Origin: a virus
Strand: one strand, 5' to 3'
Virus genome (UHGV): UHGV-1338014
Length of the DNA stretch: 34,123 nucleotides
This document shows, piece after piece, positions 27,290-34,123 of this stretch (positions are counted from its first letter, which is position 1; each line of letters opens with the position of its first letter). The notes beneath the pieces were generated by a model. The model ran no database searches. It had not been told where the DNA came from and was given only the letters and a program-made list of their open reading frames with translations. The translations under genes were made by a program, and so were the position numbers.

Positions 27290-27738
27290 CGACAGGAATC
27301 CGCTGGAATAACATGCTCTCACGGGGTGACATCACCGTCACCCATAACGGCCTCTCACGGGATGAGGGGCTGGTCACTCAGGTTCTTATCTGCCTTTTCA
27401 CCGATGCCCGCGCTGATGACGATGATGTCATCCCTGATGGTTCCGGCGACCCGCGTGGCTGGCCGGGCGACACATACAGCGATTTTTCGTGGGGTTCCCG
27501 CCTGTGGCTGCTTGAGCGTGAAAAGCTGACGGAAGATGTCCGCCTGCGCGTGGAAGATTACGCACGGCTGTCCATGCAACCGCTGCTGCGGGCCGGTTAC
27601 GCCCGTAACGCCACTGTCACGGCCAGAATCATCGCCCCTGACTGTATTGCCTTTCAGGTGGTGTTAACCCGCCCGGACAAAACCACGCTCACAATCGAAA
27701 TCACCCGTCGATGGGAGGCCACCATTAATGCCGTATGA
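27286..27738 (+). CDS. Baseplate protein gpW / gp25-like, Mu gp46 (150 aa)
   Basis: Size and position. Confidence 0.65.
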   Translation: MTTGIRWNNMLSRGDITVTHNGLSRDEGLVTQVLICLFTDARADDDDVIPDGSGDPRGWPGDTYSDFSWGSRLWLLEREKLTEDVRLRVEDYARLSMQPLLRAGYARNATVTARIIAPDCIAFQVVLTRPDKTTLTIEITRRWEATINAV

Positions 27739-28804
27739 AATCCCCACGCTGGGCAAACTGATTGCCGACGGCGAAAAAGATATTGCGTATGAACTCGGCC
27801 TGCAAAAGCTGCCGCCTGTCAGTGTTGAGCAGGCGCTGAACGTGTCATTCAGCAGTCAGGTCCGGGATTTATACGACCATCAGAGCTGGATTAAGGACCA
27901 GATAATCCCGTCCACCACGTCTGATGATGAAACCATTATCAAAACAGCAACGTATGAAGGGGTTATCCGCAAACAGGCCACCTTTGCCAGCGGGCCGGTG
28001 ACCTTCACCAGTCAGTCTCTCCTTCCGGCTGAAACACGGATGCAGTCCGACACGAATCAGGTGTACCAGGTGCTCACATCCGGTGAGGTACGGGACGGCG
28101 AGGTCACCGTCATTGTGCAGGCTGAAGAAGCCGGGGTGGCGGGTAATCTTGCTGCCGGTGCCGTGCTGACCCTGTTATCTCCGCTGCCCGGAACGGCCAG
28201 TGCAGGCGTGGTGGCTGAAGGTGGCATCACCGGTGGCGCAGACACTGAATCCATCGCGGAGCTGCTGGACCGTCTGCTGTATGTGCGTCGCAATCCCCCG
28301 GTGGGCGGTGCTCTGCATGATTACGTCATCTGGGCTCGCGAAGTGGCTGGCGTCAGCCGCGCGTGGGCGTGGGATGCGTGGCACGGCCCCGGCACGGTCG
28401 GACTGGCATGGCTTTACGATGACCGTGAAGATATTGTACCGACCCGCAAAGACCTGAAGACAATGGAGCAGTATCTGTTCTGCCACAAACACCCGGCCAC
28501 TGGGGTTATGGTGGGCAAACCGGGCGGCATTGAGGTCTGGCCGGTTCAGGTCAGGCTGAAGAAAGTCGACCTGTCCATCCGTCTGACACCGGACGGCCAG
28601 GCAAACAGGAACGCCGTCCGGGCAAACCTGACCGCATTACAGAAAACGCTGGCCCCTGGTCAGATGCTGCCGGTGTCCTCGCTGCGCACGGCCATCGGTA
28701 TGACATCCGGCATTACAGATTACTTTCTCAACATCGGGGAAGACACCACCAGTGATGTGGATGAGCTTATCACCATCGGGGAGGTGACATGGCTCACAGC
28801 GTGA
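27728..28804 (+). CDS. Baseplate J-like protein, Mu gp47 (358 aa)
   Basis: Size and position. Confidence 0.7.
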   Translation: MPYEIPTLGKLIADGEKDIAYELGLQKLPPVSVEQALNVSFSSQVRDLYDHQSWIKDQIIPSTTSDDETIIKTATYEGVIRKQATFASGPVTFTSQSLLPAETRMQSDTNQVYQVLTSGEVRDGEVTVIVQAEEAGVAGNLAAGAVLTLLSPLPGTASAGVVAEGGITGGADTESIAELLDRLLYVRRNPPVGGALHDYVIWAREVAGVSRAWAWDAWHGPGTVGLAWLYDDREDIVPTRKDLKTMEQYLFCHKHPATGVMVGKPGGIEVWPVQVRLKKVDLSIRLTPDGQANRNAVRANLTALQKTLAPGQMLPVSSLRTAIGMTSGITDYFLNIGEDTTSDVDELITIGEVTWLTA

Positions 28805-29763
28805 CGGAATGGCTGACCGCACTGCAACAGGTCATGCCACGGGGTAAAGCATGGACGCGTGATAACGACGCGGATTTAAACCGTTTTTTAAGGGCGCTTG
28901 CAGCGCGTTTAACCCGCATTGAATACGACGCCTCGCGTCTGCATGTGGAGATGCGCCCGGAAACCATGCTCCAGCTGCTGCCGGAGTGGGAGCAGTATCT
29001 GGCGCTGCCGGAATGCGGAATTGCCGCCACCACAACGGAAGCCCGCCGTCGTGCCGTGGTGGAGAAATACCGCCGCAAGGGTGGGCTGGCAACCTGGCAG
29101 ATTGAAGCCGCTGCTGCGGCGCTGGGCTTCACCATCAAGGTGACGGCCGTTCTGCCGCATCACTGCCTGCGCGACTGCATGTACCCGCTGCATCCGGCGC
29201 GGTATCGCTGGCTGCTGAAAGTGGAGGTTCAGGACAGCGACGCCGGGCGTTTTACCTGTGTTGATGATGTCATGACACCATTAATCAGCGGACGCACCCG
29301 CGAGCTGGAATGTCTCCTGAAAAATTACCGCATGGGTGGAACAGGGTATGAGTTTTTTTACACCGATGGTAACGATGAGGCTGTGTCCGGTCCGCCATTA
29401 TCCGTTAATCGCATACAGATTCAGGCCGGATATAAACCAGAAGAACCGTTAACGGTTAACTGTGCAGGGCTGCATTTTGCACTTGTTCCGGCACTGACAG
29501 GTAAGCCGCTGACAATTAACCGGATTAACTTTTATGCCGCCCGTCCGACGGCAGAACCACTGGTACTCAGCAGGGCGCAATTGCACTCAGGTCTGCCGAC
29601 AACGGACCCCATGACCATGAGCAGCGCACAGTTGCAGACGGGATACAGGACCCGCTCCCCCGTACCGGTTAACAGTATGCAGTTGCAGACAGCCAACAGA
29701 ACCCGTGAACCGTTATTGATTAATCACCCGGGACTGCATTTTGCTGTGGTCACGTCCGAATGA
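28789..29763 (+). CDS. Tail protein, Mu gp48 / P2 gpI-like N-terminal domain with a C-terminal repeat extension (324 aa)
   Basis: About 190 aa gpI-like region, then about 130 aa made of degenerate peptide repeats (…N-R-I-Q-I-Q-A-G-Y… / …A-Q-L-Q-T-G-Y… / …M-Q-L-Q-T-A-N…) and two copies of HPGLHFA-like ends. Confidence 0.65.
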   Translation: MAHSVTEWLTALQQVMPRGKAWTRDNDADLNRFLRALAARLTRIEYDASRLHVEMRPETMLQLLPEWEQYLALPECGIAATTTEARRRAVVEKYRRKGGLATWQIEAAAAALGFTIKVTAVLPHHCLRDCMYPLHPARYRWLLKVEVQDSDAGRFTCVDDVMTPLISGRTRELECLLKNYRMGGTGYEFFYTDGNDEAVSGPPLSVNRIQIQAGYKPEEPLTVNCAGLHFALVPALTGKPLTINRINFYAARPTAEPLVLSRAQLHSGLPTTDPMTMSSAQLQTGYRTRSPVPVNSMQLQTANRTREPLLINHPGLHFAVVTSE

Positions 29764-29786
29764 CATAAAATAAAAGGAGAGCCGCT

Positions 29787-30845
29787 TTGAATATTATTAA
29801 ACTCGAAAGTTTTCGACAAATTCCGGCGAATGAGGGATTGTGCGAGAACTATTATTCAACAAATATTATTTCAGCACTGAACGAAAACGGTGTCACGCTT
29901 ATCAATGATATGTCCGGTTCTGTAACATCCGTCTGTCGTGGCACTCAGGCCGTAAATACTGTAGAAAGAACGGGGCTGATTTTTACGACACCCTCATATG
30001 TCACACTGTACAGCACACTTCCGGACTTAAAAGCCTCAGCTGTACAGCTGGGATTTCGTCTGACATTAAGTGCGGGAAAGAAATATTCATCTTCGCCATC
30101 CCACATCAGGATTAATGGCTATTCATTTACAACCCCGTATCCTGATGAAGCAGCCAGTTATTACTATGAAATTTTCGCAACGCGAAACGAAAACGGCTAT
30201 GTCTCAGCCAGTCTGTACTGCAACCGCTCATTAGTTGGAAATGCATCGTTTTATGTATCAGATGACCGGACTGACAAAATTCAGGTGAGTATTGGTAGTG
30301 GTGACAATATTTTTTCATCGGGTGCATCCGGCACGTTAATGCTGGGTGATATGTACTGTGGAACAGTGGCATACGGAAAAAATAACAGCGCGGAACCCGC
30401 CCTGCTCGGAAGTATTGAGGTCAGATACAGCCCGGTAACGGCATTTACCGGTGGAAGCGCCAAAAACTCACTGAATAAAGATATTGTCACGGGGCTGAAC
30501 ACCTCTGACAGCGAGGCCGGATATCTGATGCTCTCGCCGTCCCTGAATGCAGCACAGGCCACGTTTGGTGCGGTGGATAACAGCAACAGTGATGTTGTGG
30601 CTGTTATGGCCTCGGTCACTTACCGCGGTGCTGATGCCCCCAATAACCGCCTGGCCTGGAAAGTGAAAAATGGCAGCCATGCAGGCGCAACGATTACAGA
30701 GAATGGCGTACAAAGCGACACAAACAGCTGGACGACTGTCTCACAGAGTTTTATGACCCAACCAGGAGGGAACACTCCCTTCGCTAAGGGTGAGCTGACT
30801 TTTACAGCGGAGTTGTTTAATCAGGCAAGGAGCGCTACTGAATAA
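29787..30845 (+). CDS. Hypothetical Ser/Thr/Asn/Gly-rich protein, probable tail-fibre or receptor-binding component (352 aa, TTG start)
   Basis: AAAGGAGA RBS 6 nt upstream of TTG 29787; lower GC than flanking genes; beta-rich composition. Confidence 0.55.
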   Translation: MNIIKLESFRQIPANEGLCENYYSTNIISALNENGVTLINDMSGSVTSVCRGTQAVNTVERTGLIFTTPSYVTLYSTLPDLKASAVQLGFRLTLSAGKKYSSSPSHIRINGYSFTTPYPDEAASYYYEIFATRNENGYVSASLYCNRSLVGNASFYVSDDRTDKIQVSIGSGDNIFSSGASGTLMLGDMYCGTVAYGKNNSAEPALLGSIEVRYSPVTAFTGGSAKNSLNKDIVTGLNTSDSEAGYLMLSPSLNAAQATFGAVDNSNSDVVAVMASVTYRGADAPNNRLAWKVKNGSHAGATITENGVQSDTNSWTTVSQSFMTQPGGNTPFAKGELTFTAELFNQARSATE

Positions 30846-30887
30846 TAAATATCTCTGTATACACAATATCAGGAGAAATAATCAGAT

Positions 30888-31958
30888 ATGTTTCACATTG
30901 ATAATAATACTGGCGTGCCGGTTATGCCGCCCGTCGCGGCTGAATACAGTAAAACGACGCTTTATTTCACCGAAGGAGGGAACGGTATTCCACCCACGTA
31001 TCCGGGGCCGGACTGGTTTAATATCGTGCAGTCCGAAATGCTGGAAATTCTCCGGCAGGCAAATATCAAACCGGACAAAAACACGACCAACCAGATTATG
31101 ACGGCGCTGAAAAAGCTGTTTATCACTAACAGTGGTTCAGCCGGGGCTATTGCCGAATTAACCGGTCAGAATAATACGTTCCCGTATTTTACGGGCGAAG
31201 ACACAATGTCATTAACGCCACTCAGTGCGTTTGTGCGCAGTATTCTCGGCAAAGAAAGTGCAACAGATTTTGCAGATGCACTGAAAGTCATAAAACAATC
31301 AGGCGACACGATGACAGGAGAGTTGAAAATCCGTGGTGTTAATGCGCTGAGGATTTTCGACGAAGCCTTTGGCCTGATTTTTCGTCGTTCGGAAGAGTGC
31401 CTGCACCTTATCCCTACCAGTGAAGGTCAGGGCGAGAATGGCGATATTGGTCCACTTCGCCCGTTCGCTATTAATCTGCGGACGGGTGAAATATCCATGT
31501 CGCATAAAGTGTCTGTTGGCGGTGGTTCGCAGGTCAATGGTGCGCTGGGTATCGGCGTTCAGAACGCGCTGGGCGGAAACTCAATTGCTTTCGGGGATAA
31601 CGATACCGGCCTGAAACAGAATGGTGACGGCATTCTGGATGTTTATGCGAATAACCAGCATGTGCTGCGTTTTCAGAGTGACAGCATTCAGAGCAATAAA
31701 GCAGTAAACGTTACAGGGCGGGTAACACCGTCAGACTACGCAAATTTTGATGCCCGCTATAAGCAGAGGACGGAGGGCGTGGAGGATATCCGGCTGGGAG
31801 GCCAGAGGGTCGACGGACACTATGATGATGATTTTACCGTTCCTTCAGGGTATGTCGTGGTTGGTGGTGATGTGCATCCTTCAACGTCATTAAAGCTGTA
31901 CTCAAGACCCCTTCAGAAATTAATTAATGGCACCTGGTATAACGCGGCGAGTGTATAA
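30888..31958 (+). CDS. Tail fibre protein (356 aa)
   Basis: N-terminus MFHIDNNTGVPVMPP...GIPPTYPGPDWFNIVQSEMLEIL resembles the conserved N-termini of enterobacterial phage side tail fibres; followed by a tail-fibre assembly gene. Confidence 0.7.
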   Translation: MFHIDNNTGVPVMPPVAAEYSKTTLYFTEGGNGIPPTYPGPDWFNIVQSEMLEILRQANIKPDKNTTNQIMTALKKLFITNSGSAGAIAELTGQNNTFPYFTGEDTMSLTPLSAFVRSILGKESATDFADALKVIKQSGDTMTGELKIRGVNALRIFDEAFGLIFRRSEECLHLIPTSEGQGENGDIGPLRPFAINLRTGEISMSHKVSVGGGSQVNGALGIGVQNALGGNSIAFGDNDTGLKQNGDGILDVYANNQHVLRFQSDSIQSNKAVNVTGRVTPSDYANFDARYKQRTEGVEDIRLGGQRVDGHYDDDFTVPSGYVVVGGDVHPSTSLKLYSRPLQKLINGTWYNAASV

Positions 31959-31960
31959 CA

Positions 31961-32506
31961 ATGCTTCATTTAAAAAATATTACTGCGGGTAATCCGAAAA
32001 CGGCAGAGCAATATCAGATGACAAAGCGGCATAGTATTGTCTGGCTTTTTTCGGAAGATGGCAAAAACTGGTATGAAGAACAGAAGAATTTTGCCAGCGA
32101 CACCATAAAAGCAGCCTATAACGACAGCGGGCGCGTGGTGTGGGTCGGTAAGGATGTGACAGGTATCGAACCCACTAACGTCAGTATCATTGAACTCCCG
32201 GATATTACTGCTAACCGCCGCATCACCGTACCGGGATACTGGTTTTACCGCAATGATGAATTTGTTTTTGATTACAAATTAAAAGCAGAAGACGAGCGTG
32301 ATACCCTGTTACAACAGACCAGCATCATGACCAGCGAATGGGAAAAAGACCTGCTGTTGGGATTAATCAGCGACGAAGACAGGGAAAAGCTGAAAGCGTA
32401 CCGTATTTACGCAAAGGCGTTGCAGGCGATGGATTTAAGCACCATCACCGATAAAACCACATATAACGCCATTAACTGGCCGGAGCGTCCCGATGCCGCA
32501 GCTTAA
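31961..32506 (+). CDS. Tail fibre assembly chaperone (Tfa / Mu U-like, 181 aa)
   Basis: Typical Tfa size and position immediately 3' of the fibre gene. Confidence 0.75.
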   Translation: MLHLKNITAGNPKTAEQYQMTKRHSIVWLFSEDGKNWYEEQKNFASDTIKAAYNDSGRVVWVGKDVTGIEPTNVSIIELPDITANRRITVPGYWFYRNDEFVFDYKLKAEDERDTLLQQTSIMTSEWEKDLLLGLISDEDREKLKAYRIYAKALQAMDLSTITDKTTYNAINWPERPDAAA

Positions 32507-32963
32507 AGGTGTGATTAAAACGCCCACAGGAGAACCGCTGGGCGGCACAACCATCACGCTGACCTCCCTGCACAACCGTGCAGGGATTCTGAAAGGTGTT
32601 TTCAGCCACGTCACTACACAGAGCGGGGAGTACGACTTCCCCGTTCTGCCGGGCGTGTACAGTGTTCGCCTGACACAGAGCGCACAGCGCCTTTCAGAAA
32701 TCGGCATCATTCGCGTTTATGAAGATTCACAGGACGGTTCGCTTAACGATTTTTTGTCGGTGACAGATGCAGATTTGCGCCCTGAATCTCTTAAAAAGTT
32801 CGAAGAGATTGCAATGCAGATACAAAAAAGTGCGGAAAGTGTCAGATTATATGCAGAGGAGGTGAAACGGGATTGCGCAATTACCCTCGAAAACAGAAAA
32901 CAGACAGAGAGACTGCTGTCCCTGATAGCAGAGCCTCTTTCTCAGAGTGCCGCAGAAAGCTGA
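32493..32963 (+). CDS. Stand-alone prophage tail-fibre N-terminal domain protein (156 aa), likely remnant of a second fibre gene
   Basis: IRVYEDSQDGSLNDFLSVTDADLRPE matches the hallmark motif of the lambda-type side-tail-fibre N-terminal domain; the ORF stops after about 156 aa with no fibre shaft. Confidence 0.6.
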   Translation: MPQLKGVIKTPTGEPLGGTTITLTSLHNRAGILKGVFSHVTTQSGEYDFPVLPGVYSVRLTQSAQRLSEIGIIRVYEDSQDGSLNDFLSVTDADLRPESLKKFEEIAMQIQKSAESVRLYAEEVKRDCAITLENRKQTERLLSLIAEPLSQSAAES

Positions 32964-33003
32964 CTCAAAAAAGGTTAATAATTAAGCGTTTTGTATAGAT
33001 TAT

Positions 33004-33100
33004 GACGATCGATACCATCATATCGATCGTCGTTTTACATCATGTGTGGTTAAATATCCCCAGCCCTCCGGGTGGTCGTATCTGGTTATTACACAGGGGG
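33004..33100 (+). promoter_or_regulatory. com-mom regulatory region with a perfect 11-bp palindrome carrying two GATC sites
   Basis: GACGATCGATA-N6-TATCGATCGTC at 33004..33031 (GATC at 33007..33010 and 33025..33028), followed by the promoter region and the com RBS. Mu mom is known to be controlled by Dam methylation upstream of its promoter. Confidence 0.6.
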
Positions 33101-33104
33101 AATC

Positions 33105-33290
33105 ATGGACTCTGTTCGCTGTAAAAACTGCAATAAGTTACTGTTTAAAGGAGGTTTTAAGCATATAGAAATTAAATGCCCTCGCTGTAAACGTTACATT
33201 GTCATATCGAATGCCAAAGAGCATCCCACGGAGCTGTATTGTGGGAAAAGAGAAGAAATCACGCATTCTGACAAAACCCTGCGTTATTGA
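33105..33290 (+). CDS. com: Com, zinc-finger translational activator of mom (61 aa)
   Basis: CKNC...CPRC zinc-finger motif; small ORF overlapping the 5' end of mom; AGGGGG RBS before ATG 33105. Confidence 0.85.
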
Positions 33291-33936
33291 GTATGAAGGC
33301 CGGATTGTCGGCTATGGTTCAAAGGAGTTGCGCGTTGAAACCATATCCTGCTGGCTGGCCCGCACAATCATTCAGACAAAGCATTATTCCCGCCGTTTTG
33401 TGAATAACTCCTACCTGCATCTGGGCGTATTCAGCGGACGTGATCTGGTTGGCGTTCTTCAGTGGGGATATGCCCTTAATCCCAACTCAGGGCGTCGTGT
33501 CGTGCTTGAAACAGATAACCGGGGTTACATGGAACTGAACCGCATGTGGTTACACGACGACATGCCCCGCAATTCTGAATCACGGGCCATCAGCTACGCG
33601 CTGAAAACCATCAGGTTACTGTATCCGTCAGTGGAGTGGGTTCAGTCCTTTGCAGACGAACGCTGCGGGCGTGCTGGCGTGGTATATCAGGCGTCGAATT
33701 TTGATTTTATTGGTAGCCATGAAAGCACATTCTACGAACTGGACGGCGAGTGGTATCACGAGATAGCGATGAACGCGATTAAGCGCGGAGGTCAACGAGG
33801 CGAGTATTTGCGGGCTAATAAGGAACGGGCAGTGGTACACAAATTTAATCAATATCGCTACATCAGGTTCCTGAACAAGCGCGCAAGAAAACGCCTAAAC
33901 ACCAAACTATTCAGGGTTCAGCCATACCCGAAGTGA
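33199..33936 (+). CDS. mom: Mom DNA-modification protein (anti-restriction adenine modification)
   Basis: Last gene before the right end, overlapping com. The frame is open from 33199, but the real start may be the internal GTG at 33241, which would give 231 aa. Confidence 0.85.
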
Positions 33937-33957
33937 CCCCACGTTATGAATAAAAAA

Positions 33958-33984
33958 ACAGCGGTTAATGCCGCTGTTTCGTTT
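33958..33984 (+). terminator. Terminator-like hairpin after mom (ACAGCGG-TTAATG-CCGCTGT, A-run upstream and T-rich downstream)
   Basis: 7-bp GC-rich stem about 22 nt after the mom stop, flanked by A7 and TTTCGTTT. Confidence 0.6.
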
Positions 33985-34051
33985 GAAGCACGAAAATTAA
34001 AGTTTTCGCATTTATCGTGAAACGTTTTCGCGTTTTTCGTGCGCCGCTTCA
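33975..34051 (+). promoter_or_regulatory. Right end (attR) with putative transposase-binding sites R1-R3
   Basis: CGAAA-containing repeats (TTCGTGCTTCAAAC complement, TTTCGCATTTATCGTGAAACG, TTTCGCGTTTTTCGTGCGCCGCTTCA) terminating in ...CA at 34051. Confidence 0.7.
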
Positions 34052-34056
34052 GCCGC
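34052..34056. repeat. Right copy of 5-bp target-site duplication (GCCGC)
   Basis: Identical pentamer to 48..52, immediately after the terminal ...CTTCA. Confidence 0.85.
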
Positions 34057-34123
34057 TGTTCATATTTACTCATTAAGATCGCTTCACTAAACCATAATTT
34101 TACAGGGGCTATTATGCGGAAAC

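What the first reader, a model, noticed from the sequence alone, without database searches (positions are those of the whole stretch)
32493..32963. Orphan tail-fibre N-terminal domain ORF downstream of the Tfa gene
This 156-aa ORF carries the hallmark motif of lambda-type side-tail-fibre N-terminal domains (VYEDSQDGSLNDFL) but has no fibre shaft or tip, and it overlaps the end of the Tfa gene. It is probably the relic of a second fibre gene that was truncated when the G-segment region was lost or replaced, and it marks a recombination scar.
Basis: partly seen in the sequence, partly recalled or inferred. Interest (0 to 1): 0.45.

Follow-up and report, generated by a model that had tools for sequence, protein, structure and literature searches.

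The report
Truncated second tail-fibre gene stub
This 156-codon gene is the front end of a second tail-fibre gene that a deletion cut short in a Mu-like prophage of E. coli; it keeps the part that clips a fibre onto the virus particle but has lost the shaft, the receptor-binding tip and the helper gene, so it is an ordinary gene remnant.

Summary
ORF 32493-32963 (156 aa) matches Pfam PF08400 (E 7e-25) and carries VYEDSQDGSLNDFL. It overlaps the Tfa stop by 14 nt.

It is the 5' stub of a second fibre gene. In 14 IMG/VR and 5 E. coli relatives, the slot between Tfa and com holds a PF08400 protein. In 17 of these it is a one-piece fibre of 443-1040 aa followed by a DUF4376 chaperone gene. In two it is a 202- or 301-aa anchor with separate distal genes. 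Relatives keep the same 14-nt overlap.

The stub keeps three parts: the collar domain (best fold match Ur-lambda gpStfN, 9E7M), the linker, and about 58 residues of coiled coil. About 1.7-3.8 kb is missing. Similarity to relatives resumes just past the chaperone stop codon, next to the mom control region.

The G-segment idea fails. The window has no Gin, no gix site and no inverted S'/U' copy.

The stub has a single origin: its 3' 195 nt are nearly invariant. It travels in prophages at four or more insertion sites. RefSeq already annotates it as a pseudogene.

Every stub-bearing prophage also has an extended gp48 plus a 352-aa jelly-roll protein. Prophages with an intact fibre 2 lack both.

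The finding is ordinary. The stub is probably translated but functionless.

The parts
32493..32963 (+). ORF156, the 5' stub of the second tail-fibre gene ('fibre 2').
   Evidence: PF08400 E 7e-25. It sits where relatives have a 443-1040 aa one-piece fibre. RefSeq annotates the same sequence as a pseudogene 'missing C-terminus'.
32493..32765 (+). Collar (anchor) domain, residues 1-91: a six-strand beta-sandwich plus a short helix.
   Evidence: AF2 model has strands at 3-75 and a helix at 84-88. Foldseek best hit is Ur-lambda gpStfN 9e7m, TM 0.83, rmsd 1.6 A. phmmer gives E 7e-11.
32766..32783 (+). Flexible linker, about residues 92-97.
   Evidence: pLDDT is below 50 at residues 92-94. It corresponds to the gpStf linker at 92-101 (PMC12617516).
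32784..32960 (+). Stub of the proximal coiled-coil shaft, residues 98-156.
   Evidence: AF2 predicts a single helix at 98-155. Residues 96-156 align end to end with the start of the shaft in full-length fibres, at 34-39% identity and E 1e-8.
32481..32506 (+). GGAG Shine-Dalgarno sequence (32481-32484), the ATG start, and the 14-nt overlap with the Tfa stop (32493-32506).
   Evidence: Read from the sequence. The same overlap is present in L003-L006.
32808..32978 (+). A 171-nt segment private to the stub allele. It stands in place of 1666 nt in L003.
   Evidence: blastn breakpoints. In E. coli complete genomes it is found only in the 23 stub-bearing genomes, at 99.5% identity or more.
32964..32989 (+). 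Right-hand deletion junction. Similarity to relatives resumes here, just past the position of the DUF4376 stop codon.
31961..32506 (+). Tfa (Mu U homologue), the chaperone of fibre 1.
   Evidence: PF02413 E 3e-23. Mu U and U' match it by tblastn at 36-43% identity.
30888..31958 (+). Fibre 1 (Mu S homologue).
   Evidence: phrog_6859 E 3e-135. Mu S matches by tblastn.
28789..29763 (+). Long gp48 baseplate wedge protein. Its C-terminal repeat extension covers about residues 200-324 (29386-29763).
   Evidence: PF10076 matches residues 11-191. The repeats match the C-terminus of the PF08400 adaptor P0024, E 2e-7. Relatives with an intact fibre 2 have a 194-aa gp48.
29787..30845 (+). A 352-aa virion-type double jelly-roll protein that always accompanies the stub. 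It is a candidate replacement for the second receptor-binding module.
   Evidence: 50% identical (E 9e-115) to the protein encoded behind the PF08400 adaptor in L013. AF2 pLDDT 89. Best BFVD hit is a 'virion structural protein', TM 0.65. Co-occurrence with the stub.
33003..33030 (.). 28-bp palindrome with two GATC sites, part of the mom control region that bounds the scar on the right.
   Evidence: Nearly invariant among relatives. Assigning it to the mom Dam/OxyR control region rests on prior knowledge of Mu.

Best explanation
ORF156 is the 5' remnant of the second tail-fibre gene carried by a clade of gin-less Mu-like prophages of E. coli. The usual layout of the clade is gp47, gp48 (194 aa), fibre 1 (S-like), Tfa, fibre 2, DUF4376 chaperone, com, mom. 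Fibre 2 consists of a PF08400 collar domain, a coiled-coil shaft and a tip.

In the window, a deletion or illegitimate recombination removed fibre 2 from about codon 157 onward. It also removed the whole chaperone gene. The right end of the deletion lies just upstream of the mom control region.

Three parts remain: the collar (anchor) domain, the flexible linker, and about 58 residues of the trimerising coiled coil. The Shine-Dalgarno sequence and the 14-nt coupling to Tfa are intact. The stub is therefore probably still translated late in infection (inferred). If so, it would yield an anchor with no receptor-binding part.

The stub is most likely a neutral passenger. Its loss of function is tolerated because the phage still has fibre 1. 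These prophages also carry an extended gp48 plus a 352-aa jelly-roll protein that may supply a second receptor-binding module (inferred).
For: Synteny. In L003, L004 and L005 the slot holds fibres of 468, 468 and 749 aa plus a DUF4376 gene. In L006 and L013 it holds 301- and 202-aa anchors followed by separate distal genes. Fourteen IMG/VR loci have complete fibres of 443-1040 aa plus a DUF4376 gene before com-mom.

Breakpoints. Window 31906-32807 matches L003 5505-6406, and window 32979-33979 matches L003 8073-9074. A 171-nt segment replaces 1666 nt.

The whole stub reads as fibre. Residues 1-138 align with the VL40 fibre. Residues 96-156 align with the start of the shaft in full-length fibres.

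Fold. The AF2 model plus Foldseek point to Ur-lambda gpStfN and the XM1 neck collar spike.

Homologue lengths. Median 465 aa; 14 of the 150 best are under 180 aa and another six are 180-199 aa. Most of those under 200 aa read like fragments or frameshifts, but at least one (P0111, 194 aa) looks like a complete short anchor.

Single origin. 36 of 37 variable sites among eight stub alleles lie in nt 21-276, and only one lies in nt 277-471. By my calculation the chance of this under a uniform spread is about 7e-8.

Frameshifted copies exist: P0007, P0008 and P0009, and the 1-nt deletions in hits H82 and H83.

An independent and more complete deletion of the same module in L015 leaves only 13 fibre codons.

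RefSeq PGAP annotates the sequence as a pseudogene.
Against: The ORF is intact in 21 of 23 complete E. coli genomes and in all nine fetched loci.

It persists in prophages at four or more insertion sites, alongside three different fibre-1 alleles.

dN/dS between stub alleles is 0.12-0.35.

These points could indicate selection for a fibre-less collar protein. They are weak evidence, though. The substitutions are confined to the collar-coding part, which recombines with functional alleles.

The full-length parent of the 171-nt shaft segment was not found, so the exact left endpoint of the deletion is unknown.
Confidence: 0.85

Rival explanations
1. ORF156 is a functional short protein. In this reading a fibre-less collar is translated, trimerises through its coiled-coil stub, and assembles as a ring on the neck or tail. 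There it would stabilise the particle or occupy the fibre-2 docking sites, and it would be kept by selection.
For: The SD sequence and coupling to Tfa are intact. The model shows a well-folded domain plus a long helix. The domain alone forms a 12-mer collar in Ur-lambda (PMC12617516). The XM1 authors say gp40 reinforces the head-tail joint (PMC10457771). The ORF is open in nearly all copies and is carried by prophages at several insertion sites, so it passed through active phage generations. dN/dS is 0.12-0.35.
Against: The low dN/dS comes only from the recombining 5' part. The 3' part is too young to test. Frameshifted alleles occur. L015-type prophages lost the collar domain entirely, so it is not needed there. 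No lineage with an independently arisen protein of about 156 aa was found.
Confidence: 0.12
2. The stub would be what remained when a Mu-type invertible G segment (S'/U' plus gin) was lost or replaced.
For: The position between U/Tfa and com-mom is where Mu carries U', S' and gin.
Against: There is no Gin homologue, no gix site and no inverted S'/U' sequence in the window. The stub is on the + strand and is coupled to Tfa. Mu's S and S' share an N-terminus unrelated to PF08400. All relatives show a co-directional fibre 2, in most with a DUF4376 chaperone, and none shows an invertible cassette.
Confidence: 0.02
3. ORF156 is a short anchor (adaptor) for a separately encoded distal protein, as in two-component fibres. 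The 352-aa protein encoded upstream is one candidate partner.
For: Two-component designs exist in relatives. L013 has a 202-aa PF08400 adaptor plus a 370-aa protein. L006 has a 301-aa adaptor followed by 100-aa, SGNH hydrolase and 50-aa genes. P0111 and P0025 are complete at 194 and 217 aa.
Against: Those adaptors end in specific docking modules: PLxINxxQLQ repeats, or a ...YFYPGDGRRFWFASVEDTQ domain. ORF156 has neither. In the window the repeat module is fused to gp48 instead. No gene follows the stub before com.
Confidence: 0.04

Closest known systems
Bacteriophage lambda side tail fibre Stf, N-terminal collar domain gpStfN (PF08400; PDB 9E7M). Includes the frameshifted stf of laboratory lambda (orf-401/orf-314).
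   Same: The domain is the same: phmmer E 7e-11 and Foldseek TM 0.83. The order of collar, linker and trimeric coiled coil is the same (PMC12617516). As in laboratory lambda, the phage carries a broken stf-type gene and still has a fibre-independent way to adsorb. The lambda frameshift is cited; the orf names are from my own knowledge.
   Different: The window has a deletion of the shaft, tip and chaperone, not a frameshift. The host phage is a Mu-like myovirus, not a siphovirus. The docking site (the gpV/gpM junction in lambda) cannot be the same and is unknown. Sequence identity is only about 38%.
Vibrio myophage XM1 gp40 collar spike (PDB 7KJK) and the cyanophage A-1(L) neck fibre (8KEG).
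   Same: The N-terminal domain is homologous or has a similar fold. They show that in contractile-tailed phages this anchor holds fibres on the neck (PMC10457771).
   Different: Those proteins are full length (839 aa for gp40). Attachment to the neck has not been shown for the Mu-like clade.
Phage Mu host-range system (S/U, S'/U', Gin, G segment).
   Same: The genomic slot is the same, between the fibre chaperone and com-mom. The biological theme of two alternative fibre specificities is also the same.
   Different: The clade here uses two co-directional fibre genes with different anchors, so both could be made at once. It has no invertase, no gix site and no shared constant N-terminus.
Tandem fibre 1, Tfa, PF08400 fibre 2, second chaperone modules in other myovirus-type prophages (Rac-SA53, vB_Apl-pPE4).
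   Same: Gene order is identical: baseplate J, gp48-like, fibre, Tfa, PF08400 fibre, chaperone.
   Different: Those second fibres are intact (1061 and 667 aa). The N-terminal domain is only about 33% identical.

Membership tests
PF08400 / lambda-Stf-type tail fibre | Sequence match to the N-terminal domain profile above the curated threshold. | tested here: met
   88 bits against a cut-off of 26.6, E 7e-25, residues 4-127.
PF08400 / lambda-Stf-type tail fibre | Collar fold: a six-strand beta-sandwich plus helix, then a linker and a coiled coil. | tested here: met
   AF2 pLDDT 77. Foldseek hit to 9e7m at TM 0.83 and rmsd 1.6 A, and to the 7kjk neck collar spike.
PF08400 / lambda-Stf-type tail fibre | The domain heads a long protein with a shaft and a C-terminal receptor-binding region. 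| tested here: not met
   The ORF stops at residue 156. Relatives are 443-1040 aa, and representatives have a median of 465 aa.
PF08400 / lambda-Stf-type tail fibre | A cognate tail-fibre chaperone gene lies immediately downstream. | tested here: not met
   There is no DUF4376 or Tfa gene between 32963 and com. The tail of ORF156 shows no significant similarity to DUF4376 genes.
PF08400 / lambda-Stf-type tail fibre | Incorporation into the virion as a collar. | not testable with these tools
   Needs virion proteomics or cryo-EM.
Mu G-segment invertible host-range cassette | Serine invertase Gin encoded next to the cassette. | tested here: not met
   Mu Gin finds nothing in the window by tblastn at E up to 1e-2.
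Mu G-segment invertible host-range cassette | Inverted gix recombination sites. | tested here: not met
   No match with up to 3 mismatches. The pattern was verified on Mu's G boundary.
Mu G-segment invertible host-range cassette | A second, inverted fibre-tip plus chaperone gene pair (S'/U'). | tested here: not met
   Mu U' and S' match only the + strand Tfa and fibre 1.
Two-component fibre adaptor (short PF08400 anchor plus a separate distal protein) | A C-terminal docking module (repeat module or YFYPGDGRRFWFASVEDTQ-type domain) and a distal-protein gene downstream. | tested here: not met
   ORF156 ends in coiled coil, the repeats are on gp48, and no gene follows the stub.

The most novel reading that the evidence does not exclude
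This clade of Mu-like phages may carry a second, collar-anchored fibre set, possibly neck fibres as in XM1. Its receptor-binding cassette appears to be portable between anchors. The repeat adaptor plus jelly-roll protein sits on a PF08400 collar in one prophage and is fused to baseplate wedge gp48 in the window. Where the gp48-anchored version is present, fibre 2 has been lost at least twice. In the window lineage the bare collar stub may be retained because a fibre-less collar still assembles on the particle and matters for its stability.
Probability: 0.15. Interest if true: 0.5.

Novelty: new member of a known kind. Interest (0 to 1): 0.22.

Why it matters
By itself it matters little. Truncated tail-fibre genes are common in prophages, and RefSeq already flags this one as a pseudogene.

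The surroundings are of modest use to people who engineer or predict phage host range, for three reasons:
- A gin-less Mu-like clade uses two co-directional fibre genes with different anchors in place of an invertible G segment.
- One receptor-binding cassette is found on two different anchors, the PF08400 collar and gp48.

If the bare collar does assemble on virions, it would be a natural test of whether the Stf-type collar has a role apart from holding a fibre.

Tried and rejected
1. In-frame fusion of the stub to the 3' end of the DUF4376 chaperone gene. A MAFFT alignment suggested it, but local alignment against shuffles showed no signal; the observed score was reached by 171-486 of 500 shuffles. 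Rejected.

2. G-segment origin. No Gin, no gix site and no inverted S'/U' copy. Rejected.

3. dN/dS as evidence for selection on the stub. The values are low (0.12-0.35). However, all but one substitution lie in nt 21-276 in patchy mosaic patterns. They probably came in by recombination with functional alleles, so the test is uninformative.

4. Search for the full-length parent of the private 171-nt shaft segment. It occurs only in the 23 stub genomes among 5426 complete E. coli genomes. It is absent from IMG/VR relatives. The GTDB representative scan returned nothing. Not found.

5. Phage isolates. No record in the phage collection has a close relative of this collar subfamily; the best hit is 34% identical.

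6. PDB fold search for the 352-aa protein. It gave only low-TM hits to lectin and jelly-roll folds. The BFVD search was more informative.

7. Frameshifted stub alleles as proof of decay. Some carry several indels in homopolymer runs and may be assembly errors, so they count as weak evidence only.

Full report
WHAT THE WINDOW IS

The window is a nearly complete Mu-like prophage. The right end reads as follows:
- baseplate gp47 (27728-28804)
- gp48 (28789-29763)
- a 352-aa protein (29787-30845)
- an S-like fibre (30888-31958)
- Tfa (31961-32506)
- the ORF in question (32493-32963)
- com (33105-33290)
- mom (33199-33936)

Similarity to Mu runs to window 34051, which corresponds to Mu's right end. 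The closest complete genome is E. coli E300082, at 99.4% identity over 28000-33932. There the prophage sits in mhpA next to lacI and lacZ.

CHECKING THE OBSERVATION

The ORF has 156 codons and matches PF08400 (E 7e-25, residues 4-127). It matches long PHROG families, nine of ten annotated as tail or tail-fibre proteins, only at their N-termini. The motif VYEDSQDGSLNDFL is at residues 75-88. The ORF overlaps Tfa by 14 nt, and a GGAG lies 8 nt upstream of the ATG.

WHAT THE DOMAIN IS

phmmer against PDB sequences finds Ur-lambda gpStfN (9E7M, E 7e-11) and the collar spike gp40 of myophage XM1 (7KJK, E 2e-4).

An AF2 model (pLDDT 77) has six strands at residues 3-75, a short helix at 84-88, a low-confidence linker at 92-94, and one long helix at 98-155. 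Foldseek ranks 9E7M first (TM 0.83, rmsd 1.6 A). The XM1 neck, the Bxb1 tail tip and the A-1(L) neck fibre follow.

The Ur-lambda paper describes the same order of parts. Residues 1-91 form a collar domain, and twelve copies ring the gpV/gpM junction. Residues 92-101 are a flexible linker, and a trimeric coiled coil starts at residue 102 (PMC12617516).

In XM1 the homologous domain fixes six fibre trimers to the neck (PMC10457771). In Mu itself the S fibre docks on a loop of gp48 (PMC11915804). A PF08400 fibre in a Mu-like phage must therefore use a different site.

ORF156 thus consists of the collar, the linker and about 58 residues of shaft.

WHAT NORMALLY SITS IN THIS SLOT

- E. coli VL40 and FDAARGOS_943 carry a 468-aa PF08400 fibre and a 208-aa DUF4376 protein between Tfa and com. 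The same 14-nt overlap is present.
- Plasmid pCFSAN004178P_01 has a 749-aa fibre.
- STEC719 has a 301-aa anchor followed by a 100-aa protein, an SGNH hydrolase and a 50-aa relic of DUF4376.
- Of 23 IMG/VR loci, 14 have complete fibres of 443-1040 aa followed by DUF4376, com and mom. Three run off their contigs, three are disrupted, and three carry the 156-aa stub.
- The same tandem design occurs in Rac-SA53 and vB_Apl-pPE4.

Across 1.84 billion representatives, 499 proteins match at E up to 1e-3. The best 150 have a median length of 465 aa, and nearly all carry the domain at the N-terminus. Fourteen are under 180 aa and another six are 180-199 aa. Most of these short ones read like fragments or frameshift products, but P0111 (194 aa) looks like a complete short anchor.

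ANATOMY OF THE SCAR

Against VL40, window 31906-32807 aligns with L003 5505-6406 at 85%. Window 32979-33979 aligns with L003 8073-9074 at 92%. A 171-nt segment replaces 1666 nt.

The left break, at 32803-32813 or about codon 105, recurs in other comparisons. It coincides with the boundary between the collar/linker and the shaft, so it is a module joint.

The private 171 nt still read as fibre. Residues 96-156 align end to end with the start of the shaft in full-length fibres, at 34-39% identity and E about 1e-8.

Similarity resumes just past the position of the chaperone's stop codon, next to a conserved palindrome with two GATC sites in the mom control region.

The deletion therefore removed fibre 2 from about codon 157 and all of the chaperone gene. 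A suspected fusion to the chaperone's 3' end was tested and rejected.

The parent shaft allele was not found.

NOT A G-SEGMENT RELIC

Mu Gin has no tblastn match in the window. Mu U' and S' match only the + strand Tfa and fibre 1. The gix sequence, verified on Mu, has no match at up to 3 mismatches.

POPULATION PICTURE

The stub occurs in 23 of 5426 complete E. coli genomes. It is found in prophages at four or more insertion sites: mhpA, near yehQ, next to a GH127 gene, and next to NUDIX/lysS. An internally deleted prophage also carries it. The neighbouring fibre-1 alleles differ, at 356, 269 and 331 aa. The truncated gene has therefore travelled with active phages.

Among eight stub alleles, 36 of 37 variable sites lie in nt 21-276, in patchy patterns, and one lies in nt 277-471. 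The 3' stub has one recent origin. The collar-coding part keeps recombining, which also explains the low dN/dS of 0.12-0.35.

Frameshifted copies exist, though some may be assembly errors. PGAP annotates the locus as a pseudogene missing its C-terminus.

AN ASSOCIATED CHANGE UPSTREAM

Every stub-bearing prophage with enough sequence upstream has the 352-aa protein, and those that reach gp48 have it at 307-341 aa with C-terminal repeats. Every relative with fibre 2 intact has a 194-aa gp48 and no such gene.

In L013 the slot holds a 202-aa PF08400 protein ending in the same kind of repeats (E 2e-7). It is followed by a 370-aa protein that is 50% identical to the window's 352-aa protein (E 9e-115). 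The repeat adaptor plus this protein is therefore a cassette found on two different anchors.

The 352-aa protein models with confidence (pLDDT 89) as a mainly beta, two-domain jelly-roll-like fold. Its best BFVD match is a virion structural protein, TM 0.65. PDB hits are weak matches to lectin-like folds.

A second lineage with this cassette is the L015 type, found in about 32 E. coli genomes. It lost fibre 2 by a different deletion, which leaves 13 fibre codons joined to the last 35 or so chaperone codons. This makes two independent losses. It also shows that the collar is dispensable, at least in that lineage.

VERDICT

The ORF is real and correctly recognised as a Stf-type N-terminal domain without the rest of the fibre. 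It is a deletion remnant of a co-directional second fibre gene, not of a G segment.

It is probably still translated, because the SD and coupling are intact and no + strand terminator was found in the 31800-34123 scan. It cannot bind a receptor.

The neutral-passenger reading is the most likely. A retained structural collar is a minority possibility that only virion proteomics or cryo-EM can settle.

Noticed in passing
window 28789-29763 and 29787-30845: gp48 is 324 aa here against 194 aa in relatives, and the extra part is a C-terminal PLxINxxQLQ-type repeat extension. It is followed by a 352-aa protein of unknown function (phrog_8291), modelled as a mainly beta, jelly-roll-like fold. The same repeat-plus-protein cassette sits behind a PF08400 anchor in another Mu-like prophage (L013). 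It is present in all stub-bearing prophages and absent from all those with an intact second fibre.
   Followed up: partly
L015 9072-9208 (E. coli ATCC 43886; about 32 E. coli genomes carry this type): This is an independent deletion of the second fibre module. The first 13 codons of a PF08400 fibre (MSVVISGALTDGA) are joined to the last 35 or so codons of the DUF4376 chaperone. This prophage also has the long gp48 and the 352-aa protein, but has no com or mom.
   Followed up: partly
L006 5081-7807 (E. coli STEC719): The second fibre is split into a 301-aa PF08400 anchor, a 100-aa protein and a 456-aa SGNH/GDSL hydrolase. A 50-aa relic of the DUF4376 C-terminus follows. This looks like a cassette replacement that left its own scar.
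   Followed up: no
window 33003-33030: A 28-bp palindrome (ACGATCGATACCATCATATCGATCGT) with two GATC sites, nearly invariant among relatives, lies just upstream of com. It is presumably the Dam/OxyR-controlled mom regulatory region known from Mu.
   Followed up: no
L010 and L011 (E. coli CP028768, about 35 kb apart): One genome carries the stub twice: once in a full prophage, and once in an internally deleted copy where the transposase end lies close to Tfa, the stub, com and mom.
   Followed up: no
window 32803-32813: Similarity to many relatives breaks at the same point, about codon 105, which is the boundary between the collar/linker and the shaft. This suggests a recurrent recombination joint for swapping shafts and tips.
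   Followed up: partly
window 30888-32506 versus L002, L009, L011, L017: Fibre 1 and Tfa lie between the 352-aa gene and the stub and come in at least three unrelated allele pairs (356/181, 269/176 and 331/176 aa). The flanking genes stay the same, so this segment is exchanged as a cassette.
   Followed up: no
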